This document shows positions 3,308 through 22,221 of a DNA stretch of 64,000 bases, piece by piece; the first letter of the stretch is position 1, and every line of letters starts with the position of its first letter. The notes under the pieces are model-generated. The model searched no databases. It had not been told where the DNA came from and worked only from the letters and a program-made list of their open reading frames with translations. Both the position numbers and the translations under genes were made by a program. Location: positions 1 to 64,000 of IMG/VR virus record IMGVR_UViG_2681813455_000010; one strand, 5' to 3'. The stretch is from a virus. Its lineage: Duplodnaviria > Heunggongvirae > Uroviricota > Caudoviricetes.

Positions 3308-3646
3308 TTATAATTTGTTACTGTGCCACTCAAGGGCAATATCTTTGAAGGTGTTGTTTAACTGCGTTTCCCGGGCAATCTTTTCCTCTCGCTTCACTTC
3401 CATCAGATCGATTCCCCCAGAGATACCTCTTTTAGCTTCTTCAAGTTTTGCAGGAGCATCAGCTAAGGTGACCTCAGGATACACACCTAGTGCTAACAGC
3501 TTCTCTTTACCAGCTACACGATACTTGAGACGCCAATATTCTCCTCCACCAGGTTTTACCAGGAGGTACAGACCACCACCATCAGCCAACTTGTAAGCCT
3601 TCTCTTTTGGCTTGGCAGTGTCTATTTGACGGGCATTGAGTTTCAC
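3308..3646 (-). pseudogene. N-terminal remnant (~112 aa) of a P4-type tyrosine integrase (arm-binding domain), truncated
   Basis: Translation ..AKPKEKAYKLADGGGLYLLVKPGGGEYWRLKYR.. matches the conserved N-terminal arm-binding domain pattern of P4-family integrases; ORF ends after 112 codons with no catalytic domain; adjacent to tRNA-derived repeat at 3810. Confidence 0.6.
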
Positions 3647-5240: not shown

Positions 5241-5320
5241 ACGCAATAAAGAGGCTTCAACATAATTGGTAGCCTCTTTTATAATTACATCGTTACAGAG
5301 CGTTTTAGAGGCGTTTACGG

Positions 5321-6034
5321 CTATTCCTGTTTAAAGGCAGGCGTAATAGTGTCTTCACCTTCACTACTTGATTTTTCAGTGTTAACACGTTTTTTCATAT
5401 TAGCCCCGATGTTCTTAGATGGCTGTGTTTTGAGAGCTACAGTGTTTACAGTGCCATACGACACTAATCTGATTTGCTCAAATTCCAAATCAAATACCAG
5501 AGATTCGCTTGCTTCTTCTGTGTATTCGATGCCTGTTAAAACAACGTTCTCAAAAGTTTTATTTTCTGTAACAAGAAGAAAAGGCTGTCTACTGTCCATA
5601 ATCTGATTTAGATAATCAATCGCTAATGATCTTCTGTTCCCGTTCACCCCTGCACTCTTTAACAAGCCAGGATCGCTTTTAATCGGTGTTTCAGTGATCC
5701 TTCCTTTAAGAGAAAACTTATTGTTTTTAATTTGAACGTGATCAGACACAGTAGCACCATTTTCTACGGGGTAGCTTGTGACATCTGCCGAACGTCTCAC
5801 GTTCACATCGTCTACACTGTCAAAGGCCAGTGCCATATAATTTTCATAAACGTCATTGCCAGAAGATGCCAAGCCACTGGTAACAATAGCAAATCCGTTC
5901 TCTCCTTTTGTTTTATTAGCTTTGCTATTTTCGTTTTTTGTAGAGTTTATATCTTGTTCTGCTTTGTAAACAGCCTGAACGTGTTGTTCTGGAGTATTTG
6001 CTGCACGTATGGTTAAAATCCCGGCGGTCGCCAT
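5321..6034 (-). CDS. hypothetical protein (237 aa)
   Basis: ATG start with AAGGAAA Shine-Dalgarno; co-directional with neighbouring gene block. Confidence 0.45.
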   Translation of the reverse strand: MATAGILTIRAANTPEQHVQAVYKAEQDINSTKNENSKANKTKGENGFAIVTSGLASSGNDVYENYMALAFDSVDDVNVRRSADVTSYPVENGATVSDHVQIKNNKFSLKGRITETPIKSDPGLLKSAGVNGNRRSLAIDYLNQIMDSRQPFLLVTENKTFENVVLTGIEYTEEASESLVFDLEFEQIRLVSYGTVNTVALKTQPSKNIGANMKKRVNTEKSSSEGEDTITPAFKQE

Positions 6035-6067
6035 AATAATAATTTCCTTGTAATGTTATGGCGGGAA

Positions 6068-7897
6068 TTACCCGCCGTTGGATTGTCCTGATAAGCTGGT
6101 TAATGTTAATGATTTCAAGAAGCTATCCCGACTTGCTCTCGCTGTAAAATCCACATAATCGCTTAATCTGGATGTGTCAGAATTAATAGTAAGAGGAACC
6201 TCTGTTACCACTTCAAATGTAGGATTCAGATTAAACACAGGAGATAAATTATAAGCCGGAGTTGTCATTGCAAGATTATTTAAAGCACCCTGTTTGAGAT
6301 TGGTTATCGGTGCTTCGCTGACTGACATTTTTACATCTGACACAGAAGATTTATCATCGAAAAGCAATCCCTTAATCGTATTAAATAGAGAATGACTATT
6401 ATCAGGTGTAGTTGTTGCAGTGCCAGCGCCTTTATATTGATCAGGAACGAGATTAGAAAGATTCTGTTTCATTCCTTCATTGCTTAATGGCGGTGCATCT
6501 CCCATATTTTTCTGAATAGCTTCCGTCTTATCATCATTACGATTAAACCAGTTTACAATCTTCATAATAGCTTCAAAGAGACTTCCTGTAGCTTCTCCCA
6601 GCTTCGTAAAATACGGAGTGAGATTAGAAAGGTTTTTCATAAACTCTTCCGTTACTTTTGGATCAAGAGATTTCATAAAGCCGTCTACGAATGCTACTTG
6701 TCTTGCATCAGAAAGCTGTGAAAGCTGTCTGTTTAGTTCTCTGAATTTAACGATAGATTCTTGCTGTGTTTCTGTTAGCCATTTTCCAGAGGCTTTTTGC
6801 TGATTAATACTTTCTTGTACATCTTTAACGGAACGTTGCCAATATTTTGACGTAAGCATCAAATCATCGCCCAGGTCTTCTAAACGTTGTCCAATTTGGG
6901 AGTCTGAAAACCCTTTTTTCATCATTCCATTAACAGCCTTAGAAATTAATCCGGCTGGATTATCAGCAAATTTTTTAAGGTCGCTTTTGTTAATAACACC
7001 GATGTTTAGAAGTTCATTAATAGCGTTATCACCGCCTTTCCATTCAGATTTTCCGGTTTTCTTATCTTTCACCAATTCAGCTTCACTGTAGGATTTTGCG
7101 GCACGTTCCCTAACATCTTTCATCTGATCCAGGTATTTTCTAGCCCCTTGATCACCCATCATAGAGTCAACGCCGTTTCTATAGGCCCATTCTGTAATGT
7201 TATACATCTGGTTAACGTCTACACCGCCCAGCTTGGCACGTTGAATTAGCTCACCTTGCGTGTCAGCGTTAGCGAAGCTATTAGCCATAAATTCAGCGGT
7301 TTTGCTTGCAGCCATCACGCCAGCCGCCGCTGTAGCGCCTCCAAATAACAGAGCGCCCATAGTGGCGGAATTCCCTGATCCTCCCTTAACGGGGGCTAAT
7401 TGAGCTTTTCTGTTGCCATTAATCTTACGTTGTTGCTGTTGTAAGCGTTTCATCTGGCTATTCATACGTGCAAGCGAGATAGCCCCTTGCTCATATTGTT
7501 TCGCTATCTCTCTAGCCTGTGCAATAGCTTTATATTGTTCCGCTACAGAGAGGCGGTGCATTGCACTAATGCTTGATCCAACGTCTAAAAGCTTTAGTTC
7601 AGCTTTCTCCTTACGTGCTGCTATTTGTTGCTGTTGCCTTGCCTGTGCTCTTGCTGCGGCAGCTTGTGCTCTTTGATTCTGTTTTTCTGTTTTAGCTTTC
7701 TGTTGAGCAATCTTGTCTACTTCGCTTTGTGCTTTCTTATAGCCTTTAGTGACATTATCAAACCTCAGTTTAGCTGGCTTGATATTATCAGTGAATTCTT
7801 TTAGGCTTGTAATAGAGTCTTTCGCTTTTTTCAAGCTGTCTTTATCTACACTAAATGTAACTGTGTTCTTAATTTTAGAAGTGTTAATTTCTAACAT
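6068..7897 (-). CDS. hypothetical coiled-coil protein (609 aa) with Gln/Ala-rich helix and Gly/Ala-rich hydrophobic segment; tape-measure-like or scaffold-like (speculative)
   Basis: ATG start with AGGGGA SD; long heptad-like Q/A/R-rich stretch and GALLFGGATAAAGVMAAS segment. Confidence 0.5.
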   Translation of the reverse strand: MLEINTSKIKNTVTFSVDKDSLKKAKDSITSLKEFTDNIKPAKLRFDNVTKGYKKAQSEVDKIAQQKAKTEKQNQRAQAAAARAQARQQQQIAARKEKAELKLLDVGSSISAMHRLSVAEQYKAIAQAREIAKQYEQGAISLARMNSQMKRLQQQQRKINGNRKAQLAPVKGGSGNSATMGALLFGGATAAAGVMAASKTAEFMANSFANADTQGELIQRAKLGGVDVNQMYNITEWAYRNGVDSMMGDQGARKYLDQMKDVRERAAKSYSEAELVKDKKTGKSEWKGGDNAINELLNIGVINKSDLKKFADNPAGLISKAVNGMMKKGFSDSQIGQRLEDLGDDLMLTSKYWQRSVKDVQESINQQKASGKWLTETQQESIVKFRELNRQLSQLSDARQVAFVDGFMKSLDPKVTEEFMKNLSNLTPYFTKLGEATGSLFEAIMKIVNWFNRNDDKTEAIQKNMGDAPPLSNEGMKQNLSNLVPDQYKGAGTATTTPDNSHSLFNTIKGLLFDDKSSVSDVKMSVSEAPITNLKQGALNNLAMTTPAYNLSPVFNLNPTFEVVTEVPLTINSDTSRLSDYVDFTARASRDSFLKSLTLTSLSGQSNGG

Positions 7898-7911
7898 TTA
7901 AAATCCCCTTA

Positions 7912-8115
7912 TTAATCATTTTTATCACCTTCTTTACTTAAGAAATGGTGTAGAGCCTGATCAATACTCTCGTTTAATCTGAACATACGGGCTTTTACTC
8001 CTTCATATGGAACATCTAAAAGAGAACAGAGATATTTCAGATTTAACAAGCCTCTAGAATCATTAGCATCTAGATGTACGTGCACACCATTTTTTGATTT
8101 CAAAATCACTTCCAT
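7912..8115 (-). CDS. hypothetical protein (67 aa)
   Basis: Short ORF tightly packed between neighbouring minus-strand genes. Confidence 0.35.
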   Translation of the reverse strand: MEVILKSKNGVHVHLDANDSRGLLNLKYLCSLLDVPYEGVKARMFRLNESIDQALHHFLSKEGDKND

Positions 8116-8201
8116 ATTTTAATCACCTCTCAAAATTTAAAAATAAATAAAAAAAAGGCGAAGCGTGAATACACGCCACGCCTCTATTACACGTTAAAAT
8201 A

Positions 8202-9230
8202 TTATTTAACAGTGATTTGAACGGAGAAGCCTACACCGTGGTTTACAACCATCTGGCTATTCTCTGTAACAACGTTAACAGCATCACCACGAGAAGATTC
8301 ATAGCTGTAGCTATAGACCTCAGTAGGGGCGGCATTGATCAGTTCAAAGGTGCTGGAAGCAGCCCCGTAGATGTTCTGATATACGTTAGAGCCTTTAGCG
8401 AATTTAGGCACAGCTACAGCGTCTGCGGTCATATGTGCCAGGTGTAGCGGATCTACCAGTTTAATAACATCAATGTTAGTTCCTGGAATAGTGAACGCTG
8501 TCACTCCTGGCAGCAGGTCACGACGCTGATACACAACGTTCCCTTCTTCCAGTGGGCTTACATACTGGAATGCGTTTGCCATACCAGCAGAGAATCGAAT
8601 TGCAGAGAAGGCGTCAGGTTTACAGAAAACAACAATACGCTCTACAGCAGCCGCCTGACTCTGTGCTTTTTCAATAATATCAGTAGCAATCTGATCAAAT
8701 TCTTTAAAAATCTTCGTGGTGTCAGTGCTGGAAGCGTTCACAGTGGCTTTCATAGCTGATACGTTAAACAGCTTGCCCCACTCAATTAACACATCATCAG
8801 TTTTCGGTGTGTAAGTTTTACCGCTAAACAGAGATGCAGCTAGCACGCTCTCTTTTGTACGCTGATACGCTACGTGATGTTTTGCAACATAGTCAGCATA
8901 GATATCAGTGAGTGTTTCCTGAAAATCAGTGCCAGGCTTACGCTTGCCTTGAACATCAGAAGGACGGATCACATCTTCACGAAGAAAATACGGGATTTCA
9001 ATCAGCCATTCTTTACCTTGTTCTCGCTTAGTAACATTGTGTTCAGAAGAGAAACGAGAGGTTTCTTTGTTGAACAGAGATTCGTTGCTTTCGACAAGCT
9101 GGGAAACAGCTACTTTATGAGATGTAACCCCTACAGAATCCGTAAAATCAAGAGTAGAAAGCAGATAGTTTCTAGTGCTATGCGCAGAGAACAGAGGAGC
9201 TAAATCAACGTAATCATTACCTAGAATCAT
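8202..9230 (-). CDS. hypothetical protein (342 aa); possible major capsid protein of lambda gpE-like family (weak, pattern-based)
   Basis: ATG start with AAGGA SD; size and C-terminal half pattern (..RIVVFCKPDAFSAIRF.., ..VVY..) loosely resemble lambda gpE; no search run. Confidence 0.5.
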   Translation of the reverse strand: MILGNDYVDLAPLFSAHSTRNYLLSTLDFTDSVGVTSHKVAVSQLVESNESLFNKETSRFSSEHNVTKREQGKEWLIEIPYFLREDVIRPSDVQGKRKPGTDFQETLTDIYADYVAKHHVAYQRTKESVLAASLFSGKTYTPKTDDVLIEWGKLFNVSAMKATVNASSTDTTKIFKEFDQIATDIIEKAQSQAAAVERIVVFCKPDAFSAIRFSAGMANAFQYVSPLEEGNVVYQRRDLLPGVTAFTIPGTNIDVIKLVDPLHLAHMTADAVAVPKFAKGSNVYQNIYGAASSTFELINAAPTEVYSYSYESSRGDAVNVVTENSQMVVNHGVGFSVQITVK

Positions 9231-9248
9231 TTATTATTATTCCTTTTA

Positions 9249-9611
9249 TTAAGAAGTGAAAACCGTATTAAAGCCTTCAAGCTGGAAGCCTTTTTTAATT
9301 AATGCTGTTTTTGCTGCTTCACTTACAGCATTCAGGGCATCAGCTTTAATGCACACAAGGCCAGCATTGCTACGTAGCACATCTACAGGCTTGTTTTCTC
9401 CTGCCGTTACAAATTCACTCATAACAACATAGATATCATCTCCTGATTCATATTTAGCGCCCGTGCTTGTGATCAAGTCGCCACACTCAACATCAGCAGG
9501 AAGAGAAGCAAAAACCTTGCTTTCTACAGAGGCAAACGGATCAGTACAATAACTTACAATATCTGTGAAAGTCTTTCTAACTGGAAACAGAGTGTCTAAA
9601 TCAATAATCAT
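9249..9611 (-). CDS. hypothetical protein (120 aa); possible head decoration-like protein (position-based guess)
   Basis: ATG start with AAGGAGA SD; immediately upstream of capsid-like gene. Confidence 0.4.
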   Translation of the reverse strand: MIIDLDTLFPVRKTFTDIVSYCTDPFASVESKVFASLPADVECGDLITSTGAKYESGDDIYVVMSEFVTAGENKPVDVLRSNAGLVCIKADALNAVSEAAKTALIKKGFQLEGFNTVFTS

Positions 9612-9820
9612 TTAGTAATCTCCTTAGCTTTTAATTTGATTAATTCATTAAGGGAAGGTGTAGACGGAGAAGAAGGAGAAAAATATTTTTCAACACATCT
9701 TTCTACTTCCTCTACAGAACACCCAGCGTATTTAGCTACCATTTCGGTAATTTGTGGATTAATTTTCAGCATTTCATCTTTATACTTGATGATTTGCTCT
9801 TTATCATTTAAGAACAACAT
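9608..9820 (-). CDS. hypothetical protein (70 aa)
   Basis: ATG start, 4-bp overlap with downstream gene (coupling). Confidence 0.4.
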   Translation of the reverse strand: MLFLNDKEQIIKYKDEMLKINPQITEMVAKYAGCSVEEVERCVEKYFSPSSPSTPSLNELIKLKAKEITK

Positions 9821-10169
9821 TTATATAAACCTTGTTACCTTGTTTAAAGTAAGAAATACAACTTTTAAGTTGCATAACGGGCAAAATAAAAGGCAGCATT
9901 TAGAGCCGCCTTTTATTAACTTGTACCTATGTAATTACCCTATGTTATGCATACTCCAAGATGTATGCATAACAAAGGAAAAAAGAGGTAATAATGACAC
10001 AGTATTACTTAAGGAGGAGAAGCGGGGAGCGGAGATTTTACTCCCCTTTAACGACAAGAAGAATTTTTAATATCGAACCAATAAAGGAAAAATAATCACC
10101 CCTATATAATTATATTAACATACAATAGATGAAATGTCAAGATATTTTACAACTTTTTTGTTGCTTTTT

Positions 10170-10538
10170 TTATTCTTCTGTGATAGTAGCGCCTAAGCGT
10201 TGAGCTAGTTCAACAAGGCCATCTCCCACATAGCGAACATCAGATTCAATATCTTCTATCCAGTTTGAGAGACTCCATATCTGATCCGCTGTCAGATATG
10301 CGTTCTCACGCTTACAGAGCATCTCTACACGCTTAGAGAGGTGCTCAAAGGCATTCACAGCTAAATCCCAGTGTTTAAACGCCTCATTGAGTGCCGCTGG
10401 CGTGTTTTCTCTGTATGCTTCAAGTTCAGCACGGTTTAAAGGCAGGAGGTAATCATCCTCATAATAATTAATTAGTGAGTAAATTGTGTCATACGTGTTT
10501 TTGTTCATATTAAAAGTCTCCATAGTGATCAGCACCAT
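10170..10538 (-). CDS. hypothetical protein (122 aa)
   Basis: ORF in co-directional block; overlaps upstream gene end. Confidence 0.4.
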   Translation of the reverse strand: MVLITMETFNMNKNTYDTIYSLINYYEDDYLLPLNRAELEAYRENTPAALNEAFKHWDLAVNAFEHLSKRVEMLCKRENAYLTADQIWSLSNWIEDIESDVRYVGDGLVELAQRLGATITEE

Positions 10539-10920
10539 CTAAAATTTGGAATTCAGGGACTAAATTATTTAGGCCATTGGTGGCGAGATAACCGACGTAG
10601 TGATTATAATCTTCAAATCCTAAAATCTGGTATTTGCGTAAATCAGAGCTATCAACGATATACTCTTTTCTTTTTCTAGGTTTCCAGAATACGCCAGGTG
10701 TTGAAGATAAGATTTCTTGTAAGGCGTTAAATTCATCTCCACAAGGCACAGAGGGAGAATGTTCTATGATCTCTGTTTTCCATTCGCCAGGGGCGCTATT
10801 TTGCTTGGTGAGCGTAACTAGCTCTTTAAAGTCTTTACGTCTTAGAATAGATTTAGGTTTACTTAGAAGAGAAGCTGAATCACCGATTTTCTTAACAACG
10901 TTGTTTTTTCTTTTTGCCAT
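10510..10920 (-). CDS. hypothetical protein (136 aa), basic N-terminus
   Basis: ORF in co-directional block. Confidence 0.4.
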   Translation of the reverse strand: MAKRKNNVVKKIGDSASLLSKPKSILRRKDFKELVTLTKQNSAPGEWKTEIIEHSPSVPCGDEFNALQEILSSTPGVFWKPRKRKEYIVDSSDLRKYQILGFEDYNHYVGYLATNGLNNLVPEFQILDGADHYGDF

Positions 10921-11052
10921 TATTTACTTTTCCTTTTCTTTTAAAGGAAAACACCCCGAAATATGCTTCTAACGTGATAAAGAACAATAACCAATACATA
11001 GCTACTATCATAATAATGTTTTCCTTTTATATTTTAATTACATAGAGAGATT

Positions 11053-11331
11053 TTAGAGAGTGGAATAGATGAAGTCTATTTCTTTATCCAGTCTTTTGAG
11101 ATTGAATGTAGAGAAAGATAATTCTTTAATCTCTATAACACCGAAATTTGATAGCTGTCTAAGCCAGAATTTTAAACCATCTTCAGAGCACCCTGCTCGA
11201 TGTAACACATCGCTATATTTTAGCGGTGTTGGCTTTCCTTTATAGAGGTAAGCAAGTGTTTCATAGATGCGTTTTCCTGTGTCATTACACTGAATTCTGT
11301 CTACTTGATTTTTTACTAAATATTGAATCAT
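11053..11331 (-). CDS. hypothetical small DNA-binding-like protein (92 aa)
   Basis: ORF in co-directional block; helix-turn-helix-like middle segment (guess). Confidence 0.35.
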   Translation of the reverse strand: MIQYLVKNQVDRIQCNDTGKRIYETLAYLYKGKPTPLKYSDVLHRAGCSEDGLKFWLRQLSNFGVIEIKELSFSTFNLKRLDKEIDFIYSTL

Positions 11332-11342
11332 AACCCTCCTTA

Positions 11343-12035
11343 TTAAAATGGAATATCAAAGTCTTCATATACTTTGGGATGTTTCTTAGCAAAATATGCC
11401 TCAATACCATTTGGTCGTTTTAGCCCGTATCTACAAGCTAGTGAATTTGCAAACTCAATAAATGATGCCCCTGCTGTTCTGGTATTCTTCTGCTGGCAGA
11501 TAAGAGAGGCAAAATTCTCTAACACATCCTCCTCATTATCATTAGCTACCTTTTCATTTGATGAAACAGGTGTTTCTTCCGTCTCCCACGGCAAAGGCGT
11601 ATCCCAATCATCATCAAGAACATCAAAAGAAGGCTGTTTATGGCCTTTAGGTTGTTCCTGTGCTTCTTCTGCCTCAGAAAGATCAGAGAGTGATGATTCT
11701 CCTGGGGGAGTAATATGTGCATCTGTGAGAGGGAGAGCATTGTAAATCAAAGATGAAATATACGGATCAGGATGTGGGGATGTTTCTAATAATCCCATCT
11801 CTTTAAGATCGTTTATCTTACGTTTAATTGTTGACGATGAAGACTTAAAAATCTTAGCTAATGTTTCGTGACTTTCATAACAATTAAGGTTGTTTTCCTG
11901 ATAACTAAGGAATCGAAAATAAAGCACAATATGTAATAGATCTAAATCTTTTCCTTGAGGGAATTTATCAGAATAAATCTTTGATACATTATCAAACGTG
12001 TCATAGTGTTTTGTAAAAGTTAGTTGATTAATCAT
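11343..12035 (-). CDS. hypothetical protein (230 aa) with N-terminal winged-helix-like segment and acidic linker; candidate replication or regulatory protein
   Basis: ATG start with AAGGAGA SD; ..ETLAKIFKSSSSTIKRKINDLKEMGLLE.. resembles wHTH. Confidence 0.45.
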   Translation of the reverse strand: MINQLTFTKHYDTFDNVSKIYSDKFPQGKDLDLLHIVLYFRFLSYQENNLNCYESHETLAKIFKSSSSTIKRKINDLKEMGLLETSPHPDPYISSLIYNALPLTDAHITPPGESSLSDLSEAEEAQEQPKGHKQPSFDVLDDDWDTPLPWETEETPVSSNEKVANDNEEDVLENFASLICQQKNTRTAGASFIEFANSLACRYGLKRPNGIEAYFAKKHPKVYEDFDIPF

Positions 12036-12086
12036 TAAAAATCTCCTTATAAATCACGCTTAATGCGCTACTAAAGTGAATGAGGA

Positions 12087-12254
12087 TCACTTACCCTTTT
12101 TTTGTTTGATGTTCTCTGCTGCTTCAGTAATGATTTCTAACATCAAATCACTGACCATAATTTGCCTTTTCTTGGCTTCAGCAAATAAAACCTTGAAGAT
12201 TTCAGGGTCAACGTGTAGGTAAGTGCGCGGAATTGGTTTCTTAGTTTCGCTCAT
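12087..12254 (-). CDS. small ribbon-helix-helix-like protein (55 aa)
   Basis: ATG 12254 with AGGAG SD; translation MSETKKPIPRTYLHVDPEIFKVLFAEAKKRQIMVSDLMLEIITEAAENIKQKKGK; below ORF-track cutoff, found by eye. Confidence 0.4.
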   Translation of the reverse strand: MSETKKPIPRTYLHVDPEIFKVLFAEAKKRQIMVSDLMLEIITEAAENIKQKKGK

Positions 12255-12273
12255 AGTTTTCTCCTTCTATTCT

Positions 12274-12462
12274 TTACTCTGTTTCAGATTCTTTTTCATT
12301 TTTTCTTAGTTCATCAATAATCTTGAGTGCTTCATTGAAGCAAGCTGCTCGTTCTGGATAACCTCGACTCCTTGCCATATTACGATTCATTACTACTTGA
12401 TGGCGTGTAAGCTCACCTTTTTTAAATGCCTGGATGACGTGCTCAGGTGTAAACCATTTCAT
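12274..12462 (-). CDS. hypothetical protein (62 aa)
   Basis: Short ORF adjacent to RHH gene. Confidence 0.3.
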   Translation of the reverse strand: MKWFTPEHVIQAFKKGELTRHQVVMNRNMARSRGYPERAACFNEALKIIDELRKNEKESETE

Positions 12463-13221
12463 AAAAAACTCCTTATTCAGTTAAAAGAAAAACACCTTGC
12501 AAGCCTGACGGCTTCAAAGTGCATTGATTTTGATTATTTAGAGAAGAATGTTTTTCTGTCCCTCTAATACCTATTATTACATATAAAGAAACATTTGTCA
12601 ATACCTTTTCACAAAAAATCTGATCTTTTTCATGCACTTACATTTTTTCTTAGCAATTCGTGCTCTTCTGTGTAGTGCTATTCTTCATTATTGTCTAAAA
12701 CGCTCTAAAACGCGTTCTAACGAGATTTTGATAAAAGCAATACATTCCCTTATGTAATGGCTGTTTAGCTCGCCAGAGGCTTATTTAAGGGGCTTATTTT
12801 GTATTTGTTAGGTATATGAAAAGGTAATGGTAGATATAAGATAGAGAGTCACTTTATAAAACGCTCTGTAAAGCCCTGTAGTGAGCTTATATATGTAGGC
12901 AATGCGTTTCCATTCCCTACCCTGCTTAATGCTGTTAGAGAAGCATTTAGACCCCTTATTTTTAATTAATTAAAGTATCCTCTATACATTCCTGTTATGA
13001 AACACCTCTGAATCCTTCATAAAACACATTATGACGCAAAGAACACTTTTCTAAGGTGATTCCCTTTCTGAACTCTGTTTCTTGCGTCAAAGAGCTACAC
13101 AGAGTTTATAAAGCTATTATTAATAATAAAGTAGATAAAGTAAGTAAGATAACTAAGATAGATAAGATTAATAAGATCAGAATTCTCTTTCGGTGTCGCC
13201 TCTGGCTTTTCCACCGAAAAC

Positions 13222-13384
13222 AATTACACGACTACAGAATGTAGGAAGTGGAATTGTATTGAGGCTTAGTGAAATTACACGAGGAAAGCAGAGTGTAATT
13301 GAGCTTTAGCCGCTCTCTCTTCGAGTAATTACACAACTACAGAGAATAACGAGAGTTATTAAGTGTAGGAGGGTAATTACGAGG
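13222..13384. repeat. cluster of 4-5 AATTACAC(G/A)A-containing repeats (two 17-bp near-identical copies at 13222-13238 and 13327-13343)
   Basis: Read directly: aattacacgactacaga / aattacacgagg / aattacacaactacaga / aattacgagg. Confidence 0.6.
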
Positions 13385-13620
13385 TAGAGAGATAGAGTTA
13401 ACACATAAGCAATCTATGATTGGTTAGGTGATTACTCTTCTGCGCACAGCGCAATAGTATTTCTTCGTGGGCGTTACCGCCAACGATAGTTACACGAAGA
13501 AAGTAACGCTTTGCTTTCGGTGTGAGCGGAACGGGCCAGCCAACGTAGCCCGAAAGGTAGCGGAGTAAGGCTGCTTGCCAGAGAGTGAAGCTAACGCCGG
13601 AAGGCAAAAGATCATATATA

Positions 13621-13821
13621 TATATAGATATAAAGAATATTATTATTATGATCTAATTAATAATCTAATATAGTTTTATTAATAGTCTTATTGTAGTTCA
13701 CAGTGACCTACCCCCTAGCTCACTATGACCTACCCCCTAGCTCATAGTGAACTACCCCCCTAGTTCACAGTGACCTACCCCCTAGGTCACAGTGACCTAT
13801 ATAGATATAAAGAATATTATT
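13621..13821. repeat. iteron array: ~4.5 tandem 22-bp repeats (TCACAGTGACCTACCCCCTAGC type, 13698-13800) bracketed by 24-bp AT-rich direct repeats (13621-13644 and 13798-13821); putative plasmid-type replication origin
   Basis: Tandem near-identical 22-mers read directly; flanking TATATAGATATAAAGAATATTATT duplicated; extra iteron copy near 13975-13990. Confidence 0.7.
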
Positions 13822-14644: not shown

Positions 14645-15184
14645 ATGAGCAATATCGGTTATAAGCGTGTGAGCACTGTAGATCAGAACACTGATCGCCA
14701 GCTTGCAGGAGTAACTCTCGATAAAGTCTTTGAAGATAAGCTGTCTGGTAAAGACACTAACCGTCCAGGCTTACAAGCGTGTTTAGCCTATCTGAGAGAA
14801 GGCGACACCTTACACGTGCACTCTCTCGACCGTTTAGGACGTAACACCTTAGACATCCTTGCTTTAGTTGAACAACTTAATAATCGAGGTGTGATTGTTC
14901 GATTTCACAAAGAAGGGATCATTGCAGACATTACAAGCGCGATGGGAAAAATGATGCTTACTATGTTGTCGGCAGTGGCAACGTGTGAACGTGAACTGAT
15001 GCTAGAACGTAAACGAGAAGCGCAAGCCGTCAATCCTACAAAGCGTGGTAAAGGTAAAGCAGTAGATAGAGAAGGTATAAAGAAAGCCCTTTCTGATGGC
15101 GTGTCAGTGCGTAAAACCGCCGAGATCTTTAATGTTGCTCCTTCAACGGTGCAACGTATCAAGAAGGAAGAAGAGGAGGCGTAA
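14645..15184 (+). CDS. serine recombinase (resolvase/invertase family)
   Basis: 179 aa; N-terminal YKRVSTVDQ motif with catalytic Ser, C-terminal HTH; ATG start. Confidence 0.8.
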   Translation: MSNIGYKRVSTVDQNTDRQLAGVTLDKVFEDKLSGKDTNRPGLQACLAYLREGDTLHVHSLDRLGRNTLDILALVEQLNNRGVIVRFHKEGIIADITSAMGKMMLTMLSAVATCERELMLERKREAQAVNPTKRGKGKAVDREGIKKALSDGVSVRKTAEIFNVAPSTVQRIKKEEEEA

Positions 15185-16376: not shown

Positions 16377-16396
16377 ATGGTGCCGATAATAGGAGT
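16377..16396. repeat. second copy of 20-bp direct repeat ATGGTGCCGATAATAGGAGT (att)
   Basis: Identical to 3810-3829. Confidence 0.65.
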
Positions 16397-16422
16397 CGAA
16401 CCTACGACCTTCGCATTACGAA
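16378..16422 (-). tRNA. tRNA-Thr (anticodon CGU, thrW-like) 3' 45-nt fragment (anticodon loop to CCA); not a complete gene
   Basis: Reverse complement TTCGTAATGCGAAGGTCGTAGGTTCGACTCCTATTATCGGCACCA has a T-arm (GTAGG/TTCGACT/CCTAT), acceptor 3' strand and CCA; sequence beyond 16422 cannot pair as acceptor/D-arm. Confidence 0.6.
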
Positions 16423-16761
16423 TTATAAGAATCCGTTTCTAATTCAAAGAATTACCCCATAAACACTGCGCTCACACGTCCCACCACATCAAAACATGTA
16501 AAGCCTTGCAAGCCATTGTGAGGCCTTATGTGTCTCAGTTTTGTCCCACCTTGTATTACGACTTGCATAGCCGATGAAGATAAACGCGACGACAAACGGC
16601 GCAGCAGTCTTCCTTTCTTTCACGACTTCCCCATCCCAAGCATGCATACCTTTCCGCCATAACTGTAGTGAATGTCTGTTATGAGCGAATTGAGGACGTA
16701 ACACTAGCAATTGCTGCTGGTTTGGAGCGTAGCAGAAAACCAGTTCGACAAAATTCGGTTG

Positions 16762-17802
16762 TTAGGCCTTTTTTAAGTACTCTCTCTGAATATTATTTGT
16801 AAGTTCAATTCTGTTAATCTCATTTGGGGTAAAAACCAAATTAACAAAACCCGCTTGTGCAGCGTGTAATTCCCCAGTATTTTCTATTTTCCCCTGCGAT
16901 TTTAACTCATATTCTAATGCATGGATGAGCTGTACCAATTTTTTACCCCTAGAAGTGAGTGGTGCCATAAAAGATGGCTGTCTATAACGATCATACCATT
17001 CAATCATGCATTCAGAAAAATCAATATCAGCTATATGTTGATGCACGATGAACTTTATATACTCAAACAAAAAATTTTGTTCTGAATCACCGACTCCGAT
17101 TCCAAAAGGTAAATTTTGATTATCCATTTCAATTTCTGCTATTCCTAATGCCATATCCATACCAAAATATAAAGATCGTCCGGCATTAGTTAGGCCAGTA
17201 CAGAAAAGATTGAAATATGAGACAGGAAATGAAGCATTGTTACTCTCAGTCTTAATCAAATAGTCTAGGATAGCTTCGACAGACATGATGTCTTGATCTA
17301 AAATCGCAAATCCTTCAAAGAGTTTTTTAGCACTGGTCAATTGCAAGACATTTGATTTGGGTATGGTAATACCCTTTGCATCAGTTGTCTTGGAAACTCT
17401 TAATGCATGGCGAACATCTTGCCAATAACTTAAATTTGTTTCTGGGTTGTGAATAATAATAAGCACAGGCAATGGAAATCTTTCCCAGTAAAATCGATGC
17501 TTCTCTTCCGGGTAGAAAATCCAATATCCATTACTTTCCTTAAAAAAGGACACCCCTGACTTTATTTGAACGGCTATTATCCTTCCTGTAGCAAAACCCT
17601 CGGGACTGACATACTCAATCTGACCATCAATTCCAACGTCAGCCATCGGAGTTTCACGCCAAATCTGGCCAATTTTGGCCATTGCTTCCGCTACAGCATT
17701 TACACCCAATCTTTCTTGAGAATTAGTCTGGTTATATTTTGGGAAATTCATATTTTTTCTCAATCGCATGACACTGGCAACATTTCCTTCAAAATCTGGC
17801 AC
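16762..17802 (-). CDS. DUF4365-like (restriction-endonuclease-fold) N-terminal domain protein with unknown C-terminal domain; candidate defence protein. Start uncertain (GTG 17802, ATG 17769 or 17751)
   Basis: N-terminus ..ERLGVNAVAEAMAKIGQIWRETPMADVGIDGQIEYV..IAVQIKSG.. matches recalled DUF4365 pattern with D...E.K-like residues; AT-rich. Confidence 0.45.
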   Translation of the reverse strand: MPDFEGNVASVMRLRKNMNFPKYNQTNSQERLGVNAVAEAMAKIGQIWRETPMADVGIDGQIEYVSPEGFATGRIIAVQIKSGVSFFKESNGYWIFYPEEKHRFYWERFPLPVLIIIHNPETNLSYWQDVRHALRVSKTTDAKGITIPKSNVLQLTSAKKLFEGFAILDQDIMSVEAILDYLIKTESNNASFPVSYFNLFCTGLTNAGRSLYFGMDMALGIAEIEMDNQNLPFGIGVGDSEQNFLFEYIKFIVHQHIADIDFSECMIEWYDRYRQPSFMAPLTSRGKKLVQLIHALEYELKSQGKIENTGELHAAQAGFVNLVFTPNEINRIELTNNIQREYLKKA

Positions 17803-18050: not shown

Positions 18051-18341
18051 TTAGACTTCAACCGATTCAGAGATCTCTAACGCATCATCAACTTCAATGC
18101 CCAGATAACGGACTGTGCTTTCCAGTTTCTTATGGCCCAACAGAAGTTGGATCACCCAGAGATTCTTGGTTTTCTTGTAGATCAGGTAAGGTTTTGTTTT
18201 TCTCATGGAATGTGTGCTGTAAAGCGAATCTTCGAGACCAAGCTTTTCTACCCACCCATGAAAGATTCGGTTGTATTGCCGGGTTGATATGTGCCGATTA
18301 GTTCCGATCCGAGACCGGAACAAGAAGTCTTTACTATGCAA
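18051..18341 (-). pseudogene. C-terminal remnant (~96 aa) of a tyrosine recombinase/integrase
   Basis: ..HSMRKT..LLGHKKLESTVRYLG.. = conserved H-x-x-R / LLGH / Y catalytic box; no N-terminal domain upstream. Confidence 0.6.
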
Positions 18342-18376: not shown

Positions 18377-19516
18377 CTAGAGCTTATAAAGCTCAGTTAA
18401 TCTAGCTTTTTCTTTGGCAAATTCTTCATCAAGGTTCGAGAAGTCTGGAAGTGTAACCATTAAATCCTTAAGTTGATGAATAACATTCCAGGCATCGTAA
18501 TGAATAAAGGGGTTTAAGCCAATAACGTTTCCCTCATCATTATTTTTAGATTTTCCTACACCACATAATTTGATGAATTTGTTGATTGCAGTTGTTTCAT
18601 TCCAGTCAGAAACAAAAAGAAGCAAGGCAGAAACAGCCAAAAGGGGATTGTTTTTTTTAACAGCGGATAAGCTCCTGATCTTTCTGAAAAGAAACTCGTG
18701 ATGTCTAGTTATTTTTTGTGCTATCCTTATCGTTGCTTCATATTTATCTTTAAGCAACCTTCTATCATAAACCTGATAACCTCGATCTCGTGCTACTAAT
18801 CGATATGCTTGTTTAGTAAATGTGGTGCTATTCACAAGATTATAGAAAATAGCATTATTCTTATTGGTCATATCGATCATCAATGATGGGTATTTGAATC
18901 TTAAAGAACGATAAACTTCATCGTTTATATCAAACCAAGATTTATTTTTTCTCTCTTCAGTGACAATATATGTATCTTCTCCTTTGCGGGAATACATGCT
19001 GGCTCTTACTAGATTGATCATGTGAGGGCTGTAGTTAACAGAAAAAGTGCCTGATTGGCGTAATTCAGTAAACCACCGTCGCATGTTTCTAATATCTTCC
19101 TGATTGAACTCTTCATGTTCAATACCTCTACATACAAGCTCTCGAATTATACTTGTAATCTCAGAGTCGGAAGTGCCTAATTTTATAAAACCATCCTTTG
19201 AAGAATCTATTTGTTTATCATCCCCATTGTAATGATCGCAAAATATTTTGTGCGCGTCTGTTCCGTCTTTTGTTCTAAACGAAAAATGAGATTGGCTAAC
19301 TATTTTATTTGTTGTTTTCGAATAACCTTCTGAAACAACAATTGCACCGCTTACATTACAAATTGGGCACTCTGCATCAAACGCAACAAATTCCTTGAAA
19401 TCACTAAAATTAAGTACGTTATTTGATAAATAAAGGTTTAGCAATTGAACTATGTCCAATTCCTTTTTGAATGTACGAGAATAGACCGTAATTGCCATTT
19501 GCACTCCCTTCGTCAT
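18377..19516 (-). CDS. hypothetical protein (373-379 aa); probable start ATG 19498 (AAGGGAG SD)
   Basis: Long AT-rich ORF with good SD; no recognisable family by eye. Confidence 0.5.
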   Translation of the reverse strand: MTKGVQMAITVYSRTFKKELDIVQLLNLYLSNNVLNFSDFKEFVAFDAECPICNVSGAIVVSEGYSKTTNKIVSQSHFSFRTKDGTDAHKIFCDHYNGDDKQIDSSKDGFIKLGTSDSEITSIIRELVCRGIEHEEFNQEDIRNMRRWFTELRQSGTFSVNYSPHMINLVRASMYSRKGEDTYIVTEERKNKSWFDINDEVYRSLRFKYPSLMIDMTNKNNAIFYNLVNSTTFTKQAYRLVARDRGYQVYDRRLLKDKYEATIRIAQKITRHHEFLFRKIRSLSAVKKNNPLLAVSALLLFVSDWNETTAINKFIKLCGVGKSKNNDEGNVIGLNPFIHYDAWNVIHQLKDLMVTLPDFSNLDEEFAKEKARLTELYKL

Positions 19517-20442: not shown

Positions 20443-22221
20443 ATGGGTTTTTATAATGACGCACTGAGTAAAATATATAGTGAAGATGATGATTTCCTAA
20501 TTATAGGATTAACAGGGAGGACGGGGTCAGGCTGTTCAACAGTTTCTAATATACTGTCATCAGAATCAAGTGAGATAAAGCATTCTCTATTTAACGGTGA
20601 TTACCCTAAGTCGAATGAAGAAAGAAAAGAGCGGGTTCTATTTAAATATTTTTCCGTGTCATGGGTTCCATTTATAAAAATACAAGCAAGTTCCATACTG
20701 ACATTGTGTTTATCAAAGGACTTTGATGGTAAGCTGAATAAATTTATTCGGGAAGTGACGGAGTTAGGTAATGACCAAAGAATCCTAGAGTCAACAGTTA
20801 ATGATCTTGAATCTATACTAAAAGAAATTAAAGCTAAAGATGAAAGCTCTGATCATGATATAGATGATAAGATAAAATTCATAAATGAATATCTAATAAA
20901 AGCGAATACACAAATTAAATCCATATTTAAGAACAAGGCTGACTATATAAAATTATATCAAGCTATAGGTAATAATTATAGATCTAGTGGGATGTACCAT
21001 GACAGTTCATTTAGTGATGATTTCCATGGCTTTTTTCTTCCTAAAAAAATAAATGATATAATTCAAAGATTAAGAACCTTAGCAAAAGAAAAGAACACAA
21101 AAACTGGAGAAAAGAAACCTATTTATATAGTTATTGATGCTATAAGAAATCCGTTCGAAGCAACATACTTCCAAGATAGATACTCATCATTTTATTTAAT
21201 GGCTGTTTCTACAGAAGAGCATTACAGGCATCAAAGGCTTAGAGAACAAGGTTTAACTGATGCTGAGATAAAAGATATTGATGCAAAAGAATACCGTAAA
21301 TCATCTTTGGATGAGAAGTCATCATATATATATCAGAATATACAGTCTTGTTTAGAAATATCAGACATCTATGTTGAGAATCCGGAAGAGGAAAATGTTG
21401 TTTGTCGGTACTCAGGATTGGCTAATCAATTAATTAAATTCACTTCATTAATGAAGCGTCCTGGTATAATAACTCCATCAAATGTTGAACGTTGCATGCA
21501 GATAGCATATACAGCTAAGTTGAACTCTGGTTGTATATCCAGGCAGGTAGGCGCTGCAGTATCTGATAGTTCATTTTCAATTAAGTCTATTGGTTGGAAT
21601 GATGTACCAAGTGGTCAAGTTCCTTGCTCTTTAAGGGATAGGTTTGATTTGTCTGAGGGGATTGATGATATTGCTTACTCTGAATTCGAAAAGAACGAAA
21701 ATAGTTTCATTCGAAAAATAGATAGCACTAAGATTATTTTTTTAGATGTTAAAAATAAAGGAATGAGAGCTCCATTTTGTTTTAAAACAGAATGGAATAA
21801 TATCCTTGATGATAAATACAAAGAAGATCTACGGGTCGAACATAAGTTAAATGATGATGAGTTTGCTATTATTGACAAAATAAAGTCTAACGCTAATCAA
21901 GTTTTTACAAGATCACTTCATGCTGAAGAGAATGCTTTCTTACAAATATCTAAGTATGGTGGCGTTGGTATACAGAATGGTTTTTTGTTCACAACAGCAA
22001 GCCCTTGTGAATTATGTTCTAAAAAAGCGTATCAATTAGGGATCAAACAAATATATTACATAGATCCATACCCTGGTATAGCAATGAGGAATATTTTAAA
22101 CGCAGGGAGCAATAAACCATTGCTTAAGCTTTTCAATGGTGCAATAGGTAAGGCATTCCATAATTTTTACACGCCAAGAATGGCTTATAAAGATGAGCTT
22201 TCAGCAAGATCTAGGGGATGA
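20443..22221 (+). CDS. P-loop kinase-like N-terminal domain fused to cytidine/dCMP-deaminase-like C-terminal domain; candidate nucleotide-depletion defence protein (dCTP-deaminase type)
   Basis: ATG with GGAG SD; N-terminal GLTGRTGSGCST P-loop-like motif; C-terminal HAEENA...SPCELC zinc-deaminase signature. Confidence 0.55.
   Translation: MGFYNDALSKIYSEDDDFLIIGLTGRTGSGCSTVSNILSSESSEIKHSLFNGDYPKSNEERKERVLFKYFSVSWVPFIKIQASSILTLCLSKDFDGKLNKFIREVTELGNDQRILESTVNDLESILKEIKAKDESSDHDIDDKIKFINEYLIKANTQIKSIFKNKADYIKLYQAIGNNYRSSGMYHDSSFSDDFHGFFLPKKINDIIQRLRTLAKEKNTKTGEKKPIYIVIDAIRNPFEATYFQDRYSSFYLMAVSTEEHYRHQRLREQGLTDAEIKDIDAKEYRKSSLDEKSSYIYQNIQSCLEISDIYVENPEEENVVCRYSGLANQLIKFTSLMKRPGIITPSNVERCMQIAYTAKLNSGCISRQVGAAVSDSSFSIKSIGWNDVPSGQVPCSLRDRFDLSEGIDDIAYSEFEKNENSFIRKIDSTKIIFLDVKNKGMRAPFCFKTEWNNILDDKYKEDLRVEHKLNDDEFAIIDKIKSNANQVFTRSLHAEENAFLQISKYGGVGIQNGFLFTTASPCELCSKKAYQLGIKQIYYIDPYPGIAMRNILNAGSNKPLLKLFNGAIGKAFHNFYTPRMAYKDELSARSRG

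What the first reader, a model, noticed from the sequence alone, without database searches (positions are those of the whole stretch)
16762..17802. DUF4365-like nuclease-fold protein adjacent to the att fragment
The N-terminal ~150 aa match my recollection of the DUF4365 restriction-endonuclease-like domain (..AVAEAMAKIGQIWRETPMADVGIDGQIEYV...QIKSG) with D/E/K-type residues in PD-(D/E)xK-like spacing. The C-terminal ~200 aa has no family I recognise. Single-gene, AT-rich, next to a mobile-element junction, which is typical context for stand-alone defence or abortive-infection nucleases. Start codon is ambiguous (GTG 17802, ATG 17769 or 17751).
Basis: partly seen in the sequence, partly recalled or inferred. 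Interest (0 to 1): 0.6.

Follow-up and report, generated by a model that had tools for sequence, protein, structure and literature searches.

The report
Stand-alone DREN nuclease defence cassette
This E. coli gene encodes a two-domain protein, a DUF4365/DREN-type DNA-cutting domain joined to a rare acidic domain of unknown function, that looks like a decayed integron gene cassette and most likely is a single-gene anti-phage defence of the recently described "Divona" kind, so it is a credible but not unprecedented find.

Summary
**Observation.** It is confirmed. An intact ORF on the minus strand carries an N-terminal DUF4365 domain (Pfam E 1.5e-31). The D42/Q62/K64 triad is invariant and aligns with the catalytic D41/Q60/K62 of the SPARDA DREN nuclease. 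The predicted fold matches Hjc and I-Ssp6803I.

**Start codon.** The true start is ATG 17751 (329 aa). All 11 orthologous loci examined have a stop five codons upstream of it.

**C-terminal half.** Residues 146-329 match no Pfam, NCBIfam, PHROG or PDB sequence. The domain occurs only fused to DUF4365 (192 representatives among 1.84 billion), is uniformly acidic (median pI 4.8), and only weakly resembles winged-helix folds.

**Context.** No neighbouring gene is conserved across 32 loci. The surroundings are mobile or defence-rich: a dCTP deaminase here, and SIR2, AbiH, PifA, SngC-like and NLR-like genes elsewhere.

**New here.** The gene is a fossil integron cassette. Its stop codon lies in a perfect attC R'' core, a homologous ~72-nt attC-like element follows, and a decayed GTTRRRY core precedes the ribosome-binding site. 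The Vibrio harveyi orthologue sits in a true cassette array.

**Closest known.** That is Divona (V. cholerae VCA0374), a validated DUF4365 integron-cassette defence. I could not test direct orthology.

**Likely mechanism (inferred).** The C-terminal domain gates oligomerisation of a collateral DREN nuclease, causing abortive infection.

**Rating.** Moderate interest; new member of a known kind.

The parts
16762..17751 (-). Coding sequence of the DUF4365 protein with the corrected start (329 aa plus stop).
   Evidence: ORF. Homologues are 329-334 aa. 11 of 11 orthologous loci have an in-frame stop 5 codons upstream of this ATG plus an AGGA SD. dN/dS is 0.08-0.24.
17317..17715 (-). N-terminal DUF4365 / DREN-type PD-(D/E)xK nuclease domain (aa 13-145 in 329-aa numbering).
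17560..17640 (-). Catalytic core D38-x-G40-x-D42...E46...Q62-x-K64 (the DxGxD...QxK motif).
   Evidence: G40, D42, E46, Q62 and K64 are invariant and D38 is >=90% conserved in 57 homologues. D42/Q62/K64 align with NbaDREN D41/Q60/K62, whose triple mutation abolishes nuclease activity. The same motif is required for EAT16 toxicity.
16765..17316 (-). C-terminal family-specific acidic helical domain (aa 146-329) with invariant motifs GLTNxxRS, (F)SDC(L/M)IDWxDR, APLTSRGR and AQE. Proposed sensor or regulator.
16696..16767 (-). attC-like element directly after (and overlapping) the stop codon. R'' core GCCTAAC (16767-16761, perfect RYYYAAC), imperfect palindrome, R'-like GTTACGT (16702-16696, 6/7 of GTTRRRY).
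   Evidence: Sequence. Homologous to the elements after the Klebsiella, Mixta, Erwinia, Aeromonas, Moraxellaceae and other E. coli orthologues (alignment A3). Consensus hairpin of 13 pairs, 3 broken in the window copy, no compensatory changes. Fold z-scores are not significant.
17766..17772 (-). Decayed 5' cassette boundary (GTCATGC, 5/7 match to the GTTAGGC core site found at the same position in orthologues), followed by a weakened SD (GAGA).
   Evidence: Upstream comparison of 11 loci: GCGTTAGGCAATCAAGGAAA-ATG in Vibrio, Aeromonas, Deefgea, Moraxellaceae and Cellvibrionaceae; ATTAAGC in other Enterobacteria.
16377..16423 (-). att fragment: the 3' half of tRNA-Thr(CGU), anticodon loop to CCA. 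It marks an island junction. It is context, not part of the cassette.
   Evidence: megablast matches to annotated tRNA-Thr in other E. coli genomes. Sequence. ARAGORN finds no complete tRNA in the window.

Best explanation
The gene encodes a stand-alone, single-gene anti-phage defence protein of the Divona type. The N-terminal DREN (DUF4365) PD-(D/E)xK domain is the effector, a metal-dependent nuclease with little or no sequence specificity. The C-terminal acidic domain, which is unique to this family, is the sensor or regulator. It keeps the nuclease inactive, probably as a monomer or by masking it. On an infection cue, more likely a phage protein or nucleoprotein than naked DNA, it allows the DREN domains to oligomerise. 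They then degrade DNA indiscriminately and cause growth arrest or death of the infected cell (abortive infection). The gene spread as an integron gene cassette, and in this E. coli it is a cassette fossil stranded at a tRNA-Thr island junction. Shown here: domain identity, intact catalytic residues, fold, exclusive two-domain architecture, absence of a partner gene, purifying selection, mobile or defence context, and cassette features. Inferred: nuclease activity, defence function, the sensor role of the C-domain, activation by oligomerisation, and the abortive outcome.
For: DUF4365 at E 1.5e-31. D42/Q62/K64 are invariant and align to the catalytic D41/Q60/K62 of NbaDREN. The predicted fold matches I-Ssp6803I and Hjc. 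An isolated DREN domain is monomeric and inactive, is activated by tetramerisation, and its tetramer resembles I-Ssp6803I (PMC12205087). The C-domain occurs only with DUF4365, is acidic in all 57 members, and evolves 2-3x faster than the nuclease domain while still under purifying selection. No neighbour is conserved in 32 loci. Defence neighbours include the dCTP deaminase in the window, SngC/BrxH-like helicase, NACHT-C protein and PifA in Colwellia, PDC-S06 in Moraxellaceae, and SIR2, AbiH, FRG and T5orf172 next to the 94%-identical relative. Divona (VCA0374) is a DUF4365 integron cassette that protects V. cholerae from phage 24, and its homologues were reported in E. coli within 20 kb of integrases. 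All but one (Nantosuelta) of the nine V. cholerae-active cassettes gave lysis or arrest at high MOI. This family is an integron cassette in V. harveyi and keeps attC and core-site relics in E. coli.
Against: No experiment exists on this protein or this allele. Orthology to VCA0374 could not be tested, and no V. cholerae protein appeared among the top 120 hits of the window protein or of the Vibrio member. The Crr6-like C-terminal domain reported for Divona is not detected by Pfam in any of 67 family members. The sensor and oligomerisation model is by analogy to SPARDA only. The window allele has a weak SD and no clear promoter, and it departs from >=90%-conserved residues at five C-domain positions including E300A, so it may be poorly expressed or attenuated. 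The family is absent from PADLOC 2.0 as a system of its own.
Confidence: 0.55

Rival explanations
1. Direct, restriction-like nuclease (type IV-like). The C-terminal winged-helix-like domain recognises a feature of phage DNA, such as a modification or structure, and the DREN domain cleaves that DNA selectively. The cell survives.
Confidence: 0.15
2. The gene is intact, but in this strain it is an attenuated or silent relic. It would be a stranded cassette with decayed recombination sites and weak expression signals, contributing little to the phenotype.
For: The SD is weakened to GAGA where 11 orthologues have AGGA, and the upstream stop is lost. Promoter-like matches are not above background (8 found against 4.7 +/- 2.3 expected). 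The attC hairpin has 3 of 13 pairs broken, and both core sites are degenerate. Five substitutions fall at >=90%-conserved C-domain positions, including E300A. Many E. coli copies of the family are truncated (18 of 60 genomes below 80% coverage).
Against: The ORF is full length with all catalytic residues. The allele is 100% conserved in four independent complete genomes. A 94%-identical relative shares E300A, so the changes are lineage features rather than fresh damage. dN/dS is well below 1. Integron cassettes are often expressed by read-through from upstream promoters (established knowledge).
Confidence: 0.15
3. Toxin rather than immunity: a DNase toxin used for addiction or stabilisation of the mobile element, or delivered to other cells, like the DUF4365 eCIS toxin EAT16.
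For: EAT16 (DUF4365 plus a second domain) kills E. coli through the same DxGxD...QxK motif. Integron arrays and islands are rich in addiction modules (text on TA cassettes).
Against: No eCIS, T6SS or other delivery genes and no candidate antitoxin or immunity gene are conserved next to it in 32 loci. A free-standing constitutive DNase without an antidote would not be tolerated or kept under purifying selection (inference). The protein has no secretion signal or marker domain.
Confidence: 0.08
4. DNA-transaction enzyme of the mobile element itself, such as a junction-resolving, homing or transposition-type nuclease, since Hjc, I-Ssp6803I and TnsA are its closest structural relatives.
Against: The gene moves independently of any one element type: integron cassette, P4-type islands, IS-rich islands, and small islets between housekeeping genes. 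It has no conserved recombinase partner and no conserved target sequence around it.
Confidence: 0.07

Closest known systems
Divona (V. cholerae N16961 superintegron cassette VCA0374; Darracq, Littner et al., bioRxiv 10.1101/2024.07.02.601686)
   Same: Both are single-gene units with an N-terminal DUF4365 nuclease domain plus a non-nuclease C-terminal domain. Both are carried as Vibrio chromosomal-integron cassettes. Divona homologues were reported in E. coli chromosomes within 20 kb of integrases, which matches this family's E. coli contexts. An Aeromonas full-length VC_A0374 homologue is annotated DUF4365, and Aeromonas also carries this family.
   Different: Sequence-level orthology is untested because VCA0374 could not be retrieved. 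No V. cholerae protein is among the closest 120 relatives, so identity is probably below ~45%. The Crr6 (PF08847) similarity reported for Divona's C-terminus is not detectable by hmmscan in this family. This allele has not been tested against phages.
SPARDA DREN-APAZ / short pAgo system (NbaSPARDA; PDB 9jsb, 9qbq)
   Same: The nuclease domain family is the same (DUF4365 = DREN). The catalytic D/Q/K residues align. Both share the Hjc/I-Ssp6803I-like fold. The likely shared logic is an inactive monomeric nuclease switched on by oligomerisation, leading to collateral DNA degradation.
   Different: There is no APAZ domain, since the PADLOC and PDB matches stop at about residue 160. There is no Argonaute partner or any conserved neighbour. 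The sensor is an unrelated 185-aa acidic domain, so recognition cannot be guide-RNA based.
EAT16, eCIS-associated toxin from Photorhabdus (PMC11297309)
   Same: It has an N-terminal DUF4365 with the DxGxD...QxK motif that is essential for killing E. coli, and a two-domain layout.
   Different: EAT16 is an injected toxin encoded in an eCIS locus. This gene has no such locus, its C-terminal domain is family-specific, and its context is defence or mobile.
Hjc resolvases, I-Ssp6803I homing endonuclease and TnsA (PD-(D/E)xK enzymes with Hjc-like topology)
   Different: Sequence identity is 9-15%. Those enzymes have no equivalent of the C-terminal domain. Their biology is different (recombination, homing, transposition).

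Membership tests
Pfam DUF4365 (PF14280), clan PD-(D/E)xK | Whole-protein HMM score above the curated gathering threshold, with near full-length domain coverage | tested here: met
   109.8 bits against 24.3; profile positions 1-136 of 139. All 57 aligned homologues also match.
DREN nuclease (DUF4365 as defined in SPARDA work) | Catalytic residues equivalent to NbaDREN D41, Q60 and K62 | tested here: met
   phmmer alignment to 9jsb_D places D42, Q62 and K64 opposite D41, Q60 and K62. They are invariant in the family.
DREN nuclease (DUF4365 as defined in SPARDA work) | Hjc/I-Ssp6803I-like PD-(D/E)xK fold | tested here: met
DREN nuclease (DUF4365 as defined in SPARDA work) | Metal-dependent non-specific DNase/RNase activity switched on by oligomerisation | not testable with these tools
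   Needs biochemistry. Only the analogy to PMC12205087 is available.
SPARDA (short pAgo + DREN-APAZ) | APAZ domain fused to DREN, and an adjacent short Argonaute gene | tested here: not met
   PADLOC Aga_REase and PDB DREN-APAZ matches cover only aa ~14-161. The C-domain has no match. The neighbours are an integrase fragment, a phrog_12525 protein and an att site. No neighbour is conserved in 32 loci.
Divona | Single gene with an N-terminal DUF4365 and a further C-terminal domain | tested here: met
Divona | Encoded as an integron gene cassette in Vibrio; homologues in E. coli near integrases | tested here: met
   The V. harveyi orthologue (71% identical) lies between ~125-nt attC repeats in a 10-repeat array. 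E. coli copies lie within ~0.3-13 kb of integrase genes or fragments.
Divona | C-terminal similarity to Crr6 (PF08847), as described by the authors | tested here: not met
   No PF08847 hit at E<=10 in 57 + 10 family members. The authors may have used a more sensitive profile or fold method, so this weakens the link but does not exclude it.
Divona | blastp homology to VCA0374 (authors' criterion: >=50% query coverage, E<1e-5) | not testable with these tools
   The VCA0374 sequence could not be obtained: the supplement is truncated, and there was no V. cholerae hit.
Divona | Experimentally shown anti-phage activity | not testable with these tools
   It was shown for VCA0374 only.
Integron gene cassette | ORF preceded by a GTTRRRY core and followed by an attC site (R'' RYYYAAC ... 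imperfect palindrome ... R' GTTRRRY) | tested here: inconclusive
   In the window, R'' is 7/7, R' 6/7, the 5' core 5/7 and the hairpin 10/13 pairs. There is no covariation and the fold z-scores are not significant. The layout is clear in V. harveyi and bounded on both sides in A. caviae. The window copy is best read as a decayed cassette.
Type IV / Mrr-like restriction endonuclease | Mrr_cat-type catalytic domain plus a DNA-modification reader domain | tested here: not met
   The window protein has no Mrr_cat or reader-domain Pfam hit. The C-domain is acidic.

The most novel reading that the evidence does not exclude
The 185-aa acidic C-terminal domain would be a previously undescribed phage-sensing module that gates oligomerisation of a DREN collateral nuclease on its own. 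That would make it a minimal, Argonaute-independent counterpart of SPARDA packed into one ~1-kb integron cassette. The family would then be distinct from Divona in its sensor domain, and would show how integron cassettes seed defence genes into enterobacterial islands.
Probability: 0.25. Interest if true: 0.6.

Novelty: new member of a known kind. Interest (0 to 1): 0.4.

Why it matters
DREN (DUF4365) is now known as a collateral nuclease that needs an Argonaute filament to switch it on. A 329-aa protein that couples the same nuclease to a private, acidic 185-aa domain would be one of the smallest self-contained sensor-effector immune proteins. Its trigger and switching mechanism are unknown even for the validated relative Divona. 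The locus also gives a concrete example of an integron cassette, complete with attC relic, that has escaped into an E. coli tRNA-Thr island array. This supports the idea that chromosomal integrons act as a source of defence genes for other mobile elements. In practice, the family is present in only about 1% of complete E. coli genomes, so it may contribute to strain-specific phage resistance in ExPEC lineages.

Tried and rejected
**(1) Retrieving Divona (VCA0374) to test orthology.**
- The preprint's supplementary workbook is stored only up to Table S1.
- The published version is not held.
- A homology search from the V. harveyi member returned no V. cholerae protein.
- A search from the 186-member cluster P0237 showed that clade to be Bacteroidales.
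- Cluster-name look-ups of 20 divergent representatives gave no Vibrio cholerae.

**(2) Crr6 similarity.** None was found by hmmscan at E<=10.

**(3) A conserved partner gene.** This was rejected. The YiiX/YebB-like N1pC/P60 hydrolase that follows the gene in other E. coli islands occurs only in one near-identical module. It is frame-broken in 4 of 5 copies and is absent from the window and from other genera.

**(4) Assigning the C-domain.**
- The PDB profile search was empty.
- The viral Foldseek search had nothing below E 0.6.
- AFDB was not available.

**(5) Thermodynamic or covariation proof of the attC hairpin.** Fold z-scores ranged from -0.8 to +0.3 with no compensatory pairs. My home-made attC finder recovered only 1 of 10 positive-control sites, so its negative results mean little.

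**(6) Carriage by phages.** No full-length copy was found in 50,697 phage records.

**(7) SPARDA membership.** This was rejected: there is no APAZ domain and no pAgo.

Full report
**1. Observation**

- The window is an E. coli chromosome segment. The 3.8 kb around the gene is 100% identical in four of 5,426 complete genomes, for example strain SF-468, where RefSeq annotates 'DUF4365 domain-containing protein' WP_236934936.1.
- Pfam DUF4365 (PF14280) matches at 109.8 bits against a cut-off of 24.3 (E 1.5e-31), covering nearly the whole profile.
- The gene is AT-rich: GC 0.368 and GC3 0.315, against 0.568 for window 28-45 kb.
- Against orthologues, dN/dS is 0.08-0.24, so it is a real gene under purifying selection.

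**2. Start codon**

- Homologues are almost all 329-334 aa.
- In 11 of 11 orthologous loci from seven genera, an in-frame stop lies five codons upstream of the ATG that corresponds to window 17751, and an AGGA Shine-Dalgarno sequence precedes it.
- The window allele has lost that stop and has a weaker GAGA.
- The protein is therefore 329 aa (16762..17751). Residue numbers below use this frame.

**3. N-terminal domain**

- The family alignment (57 sequences, A1) shows E13, R14, G40, D42, G43, E46, Q62, K64 and G66 invariant, and D38 at least 90% conserved.
- phmmer against PDB sequences finds only the SPARDA DREN-APAZ proteins (9qbq, 9qbp, 9jsb), and only over residues ~14-119.
- In the alignment to NbaDREN, D42/Q62/K64 lie opposite D41/Q60/K62. 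The triple mutation of those residues abolishes SPARDA nuclease activity.
- The same DxGxD...QxK motif is needed for killing by the DUF4365 eCIS toxin EAT16.
- The PD-(D/E)xK claim is therefore supported by sequence, residues and predicted fold. Enzymatic activity was not tested.

**4. C-terminal domain**

- Residues 146-329 match nothing in Pfam (67 members scanned at E<=10), NCBIfam, PHROGs, PADLOC or PDB sequences by profile search.
- The domain is nevertheless well conserved, with motifs GLTNxxRS, SDC(L/M)IDWxDR, APLTSRGR and AQE.
- An exhaustive HMMER search of 1.84 billion cluster representatives with the C-domain profile found only 192 proteins. Every full-length one (300-345 aa) has the domain starting at residue ~145-160 after a DUF4365 domain.
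- The exceptions are a leucine-rich-repeat false positive and one apparent chimera. The domain is therefore private to this architecture.
- The domain is acidic in all 57 members (median pI 4.76, median net charge -11, range -17 to -4). That argues against a classical DNA-reading winged helix and favours a protein-binding or autoinhibitory role.
- It evolves 2-3 times faster than the nuclease domain (dN/dS 0.09-0.32 against 0.04-0.14), as sensor parts of immune proteins often do.
- The window allele, like its 94%-identical relative, departs from >=90%-conserved residues at I190A, L209M, D247E, D251E and E300A.

**5. Single gene and context**

- Clustering all flanking ORFs of 32 loci found no gene shared beyond close relatives.
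- A YiiX/YebB-like N1pC/P60 hydrolase follows the gene in other E. coli islands. It belongs to one near-identical module, is frame-broken in four of five copies, and is absent from the window and from other genera.
- The family occurs in 60 of 5,426 complete E. coli genomes, 42 of them full length. It is absent as a full-length gene from 50,697 phage records and present full length on only two plasmids.
- Its surroundings are mobile or defence-rich:
  - In the window: an anti-phage dCTP deaminase at 20443-22221 (PADLOC E 5e-127; NCBIfam 370.7 bits, just under the 400-bit cut-off), an integrase fragment, a small phage-like element and a lambdoid prophage.
  - In Colwellia: a SngC/BrxH-like helicase, a 1500-aa protein with a NACHT C-terminal domain, and PifA.
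  - In a Moraxellaceae genome: PDC-S06.
  - Next to the 94%-identical relative: a 1269-aa SIR2 protein, AbiH, FRG and T5orf172.
  - In other E. coli genomes: CP4-type and IS-rich islands with integrases.
  - In Klebsiella and Mixta: a small islet between housekeeping genes.

**6. Junction**

- Window ~16377-16423 (minus strand) is the 3' half of tRNA-Thr(CGU) through the CCA end. The next ~270 bp match unannotated sequence found in most E. coli genomes, at a median of two places per genome.
- No complete tRNA is present in the window.
- The 'att fragment' is therefore real, and the gene lies at a junction of a tandem island array.

**7. A fossil integron cassette (not in the original finding)**

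- In Vibrio, Aeromonas, Deefgea, Moraxellaceae and Cellvibrionaceae, the sequence just upstream of the SD is GCGTTAGGCAATCAAGGAAA. GTTAGGC is the integron core site GTTRRRY.
- Other Enterobacteria have ATTAAGC at that position, and the window has GTCATGC at 17772-17766.
- At the 3' end, the stop codon lies inside GCCTAAC, a perfect R'' core RYYYAAC (16767-16761). About 65 nt further on is GTTACGT, 6/7 of the R' core (16702-16696).
- This ~72-nt element aligns with those following the Klebsiella, Mixta, Erwinia, Aeromonas, Moraxellaceae and other E. coli orthologues. It has a 13-pair consensus hairpin, of which three pairs are broken in the window copy.
- There are no compensatory changes among these seven close sequences, and folding energies are not distinctive. 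The structural evidence is therefore weak, and the case rests on homology and core sites.
- The V. harveyi orthologue (71% identical, full length) lies in an unmistakable chromosomal-integron array, with ten ~125-nt TAACAAA...GCGTTA repeats in 7.9 kb separating short co-directional genes.
- In A. caviae, attC-like sites flank the gene on both sides, inside a P4-type integrase island and after an HNH gene.
- The E. coli gene is best read as a cassette that left an integron and is decaying at its recombination sites.

**8. What is known**

- DUF4365 is the DREN effector of SPARDA. There, the isolated domain is monomeric and inactive. It becomes a collateral DNase/RNase when Argonaute filaments force it into D2 tetramers that resemble I-Ssp6803I tetramers.
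- A stand-alone DUF4365 defence has been published. 'Divona' is a V. cholerae N16961 superintegron cassette that protects against phage 24 when expressed. It is described as DUF4365 plus a Crr6-like domain.
- The authors state that Divona homologues lie in E. coli chromosomes within 20 kb of integrases, and in integrons of other Vibrio species.
- From the primer list and the deletion design, Divona is VCA0374. An independent paper annotates the Aeromonas homologue of VC_A0374 as a DUF4365 protein.
- All but one (Nantosuelta) of the nine V. cholerae-active cassettes caused lysis or growth arrest at high MOI without phage amplification.
- The features of the family studied here match that description well. 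However, I could not obtain VCA0374 (see 'tried and rejected'), no V. cholerae protein is among the 120 closest relatives, and no Crr6 similarity is detectable.
- I estimate roughly two chances in three that this family is the one counted as 'Divona homologues in E. coli', probably as a branch less than ~45% identical to VCA0374.

**9. Mechanism**

- The best-supported reading is a one-protein sensor-effector immune system.
- Shown here: an intact DREN active site, a private conserved C-domain, no partner gene, purifying selection, and defence or mobile context.
- Inferred by analogy with SPARDA and with Divona's phenotype class: the C-domain holds the nuclease off and, on sensing infection, permits DREN oligomerisation. 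Non-specific DNA degradation and abortive infection follow.
- The acidic character of the C-domain makes a protein trigger or an autoinhibitory DNA mimic more likely than direct DNA reading.
- The rivals are a restriction-like direct nuclease, a silent relic in this strain, a toxin or addiction function, and an element-maintenance nuclease. Each is set out with its refuting results in the rival explanations.

**10. Verdict**

- The gene is already annotated as DUF4365, its nuclease domain is biochemically understood through SPARDA, and a single-gene DUF4365 cassette defence has been validated. I therefore rate it a new member of a known kind.
- What remains open, and gives it moderate interest, is the unique C-terminal domain, the unknown trigger and switching mechanism, and the cassette-fossil structure that links integrons to E. 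coli defence islands.

Noticed in passing
window 20443-22221 (+): A 592-aa protein matches the anti-phage dCTP deaminase (PADLOC dCTPase E 5e-127; NCBIfam NF041025 at 370.7 bits, just below its 400-bit cut-off), although RefSeq calls it 'hypothetical protein'. It has an N-terminal P-loop kinase-like part and a C-terminal dCMP/cytidine deaminase domain.
   Followed up: partly
window ~3906-13800: A low-GC (~0.36-0.40), ~10-kb phage-like or satellite-like element. It encodes a tyrosine integrase (3906-5240), a tail-fibre/endolysin-like protein, a tape-measure-like protein, a major head protein (8202-9230) and a replication-initiator-like HTH protein (11343-12035). An array of 22-bp iterons (CCCCCTAGCTCACTATGACCTA-like) lies at 13689-13799.
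   Followed up: partly
window 18377-19516 (-): A 379-aa protein with no Pfam, PADLOC or NCBIfam match hits phrog_12525 (unknown function) strongly, at E 1e-138. ~90%-identical copies are widespread in E. coli, for example beside a short 'site-specific integrase' in a Qin-like prophage region (L040). It could be another accessory or defence gene.
   Followed up: partly
window 14645-15184 (+) and 18051-18341 (-): A complete serine recombinase/DNA invertase (179 aa), and a 96-aa C-terminal fragment of a tyrosine integrase immediately upstream of the DUF4365 gene. There is also an Arm-domain integrase fragment at ~3308-3646. Together they point to repeated insertions and deletions at this tRNA-Thr site, next to the vat autotransporter island.
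   Followed up: partly
L002, L033-L036 (other E. coli genomes), ~260-320 bp downstream of the family member: A YiiX/YebB-like N1pC/P60 cysteine hydrolase gene follows the DUF4365 gene in two different island types. It is intact (261 aa) only in L033 and frame-broken or truncated elsewhere. In the ydeT-side island, a DEAD/DEAH helicase plus a 'sigma-factor-like HTH' gene pair lies next to it and may be a separate defence system.
   Followed up: partly
P0155, P0156 (representatives): Two high-GC family members have lost the nuclease motif (for example ...RVQAC in place of QIKSG, with the DxGxD region degenerate) but keep the conserved C-terminal motifs. This hints that the C-domain has a function that does not need nuclease activity.
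   Followed up: no
P0237/P0180 clusters: A divergent branch of the same two-domain family (about 300-315 aa) is common in human-gut Bacteroidales, with clusters of up to 198 member sequences and up to 131 contigs.
   Followed up: partly
L006 9264-9911 (Aeromonas caviae): The gene immediately upstream of the DUF4365 cassette encodes a 215-aa HNH-endonuclease protein and is itself followed by an attC-like site. This suggests a two-cassette, integrase-less attC cluster inside a P4-type integrase island.
   Followed up: partly
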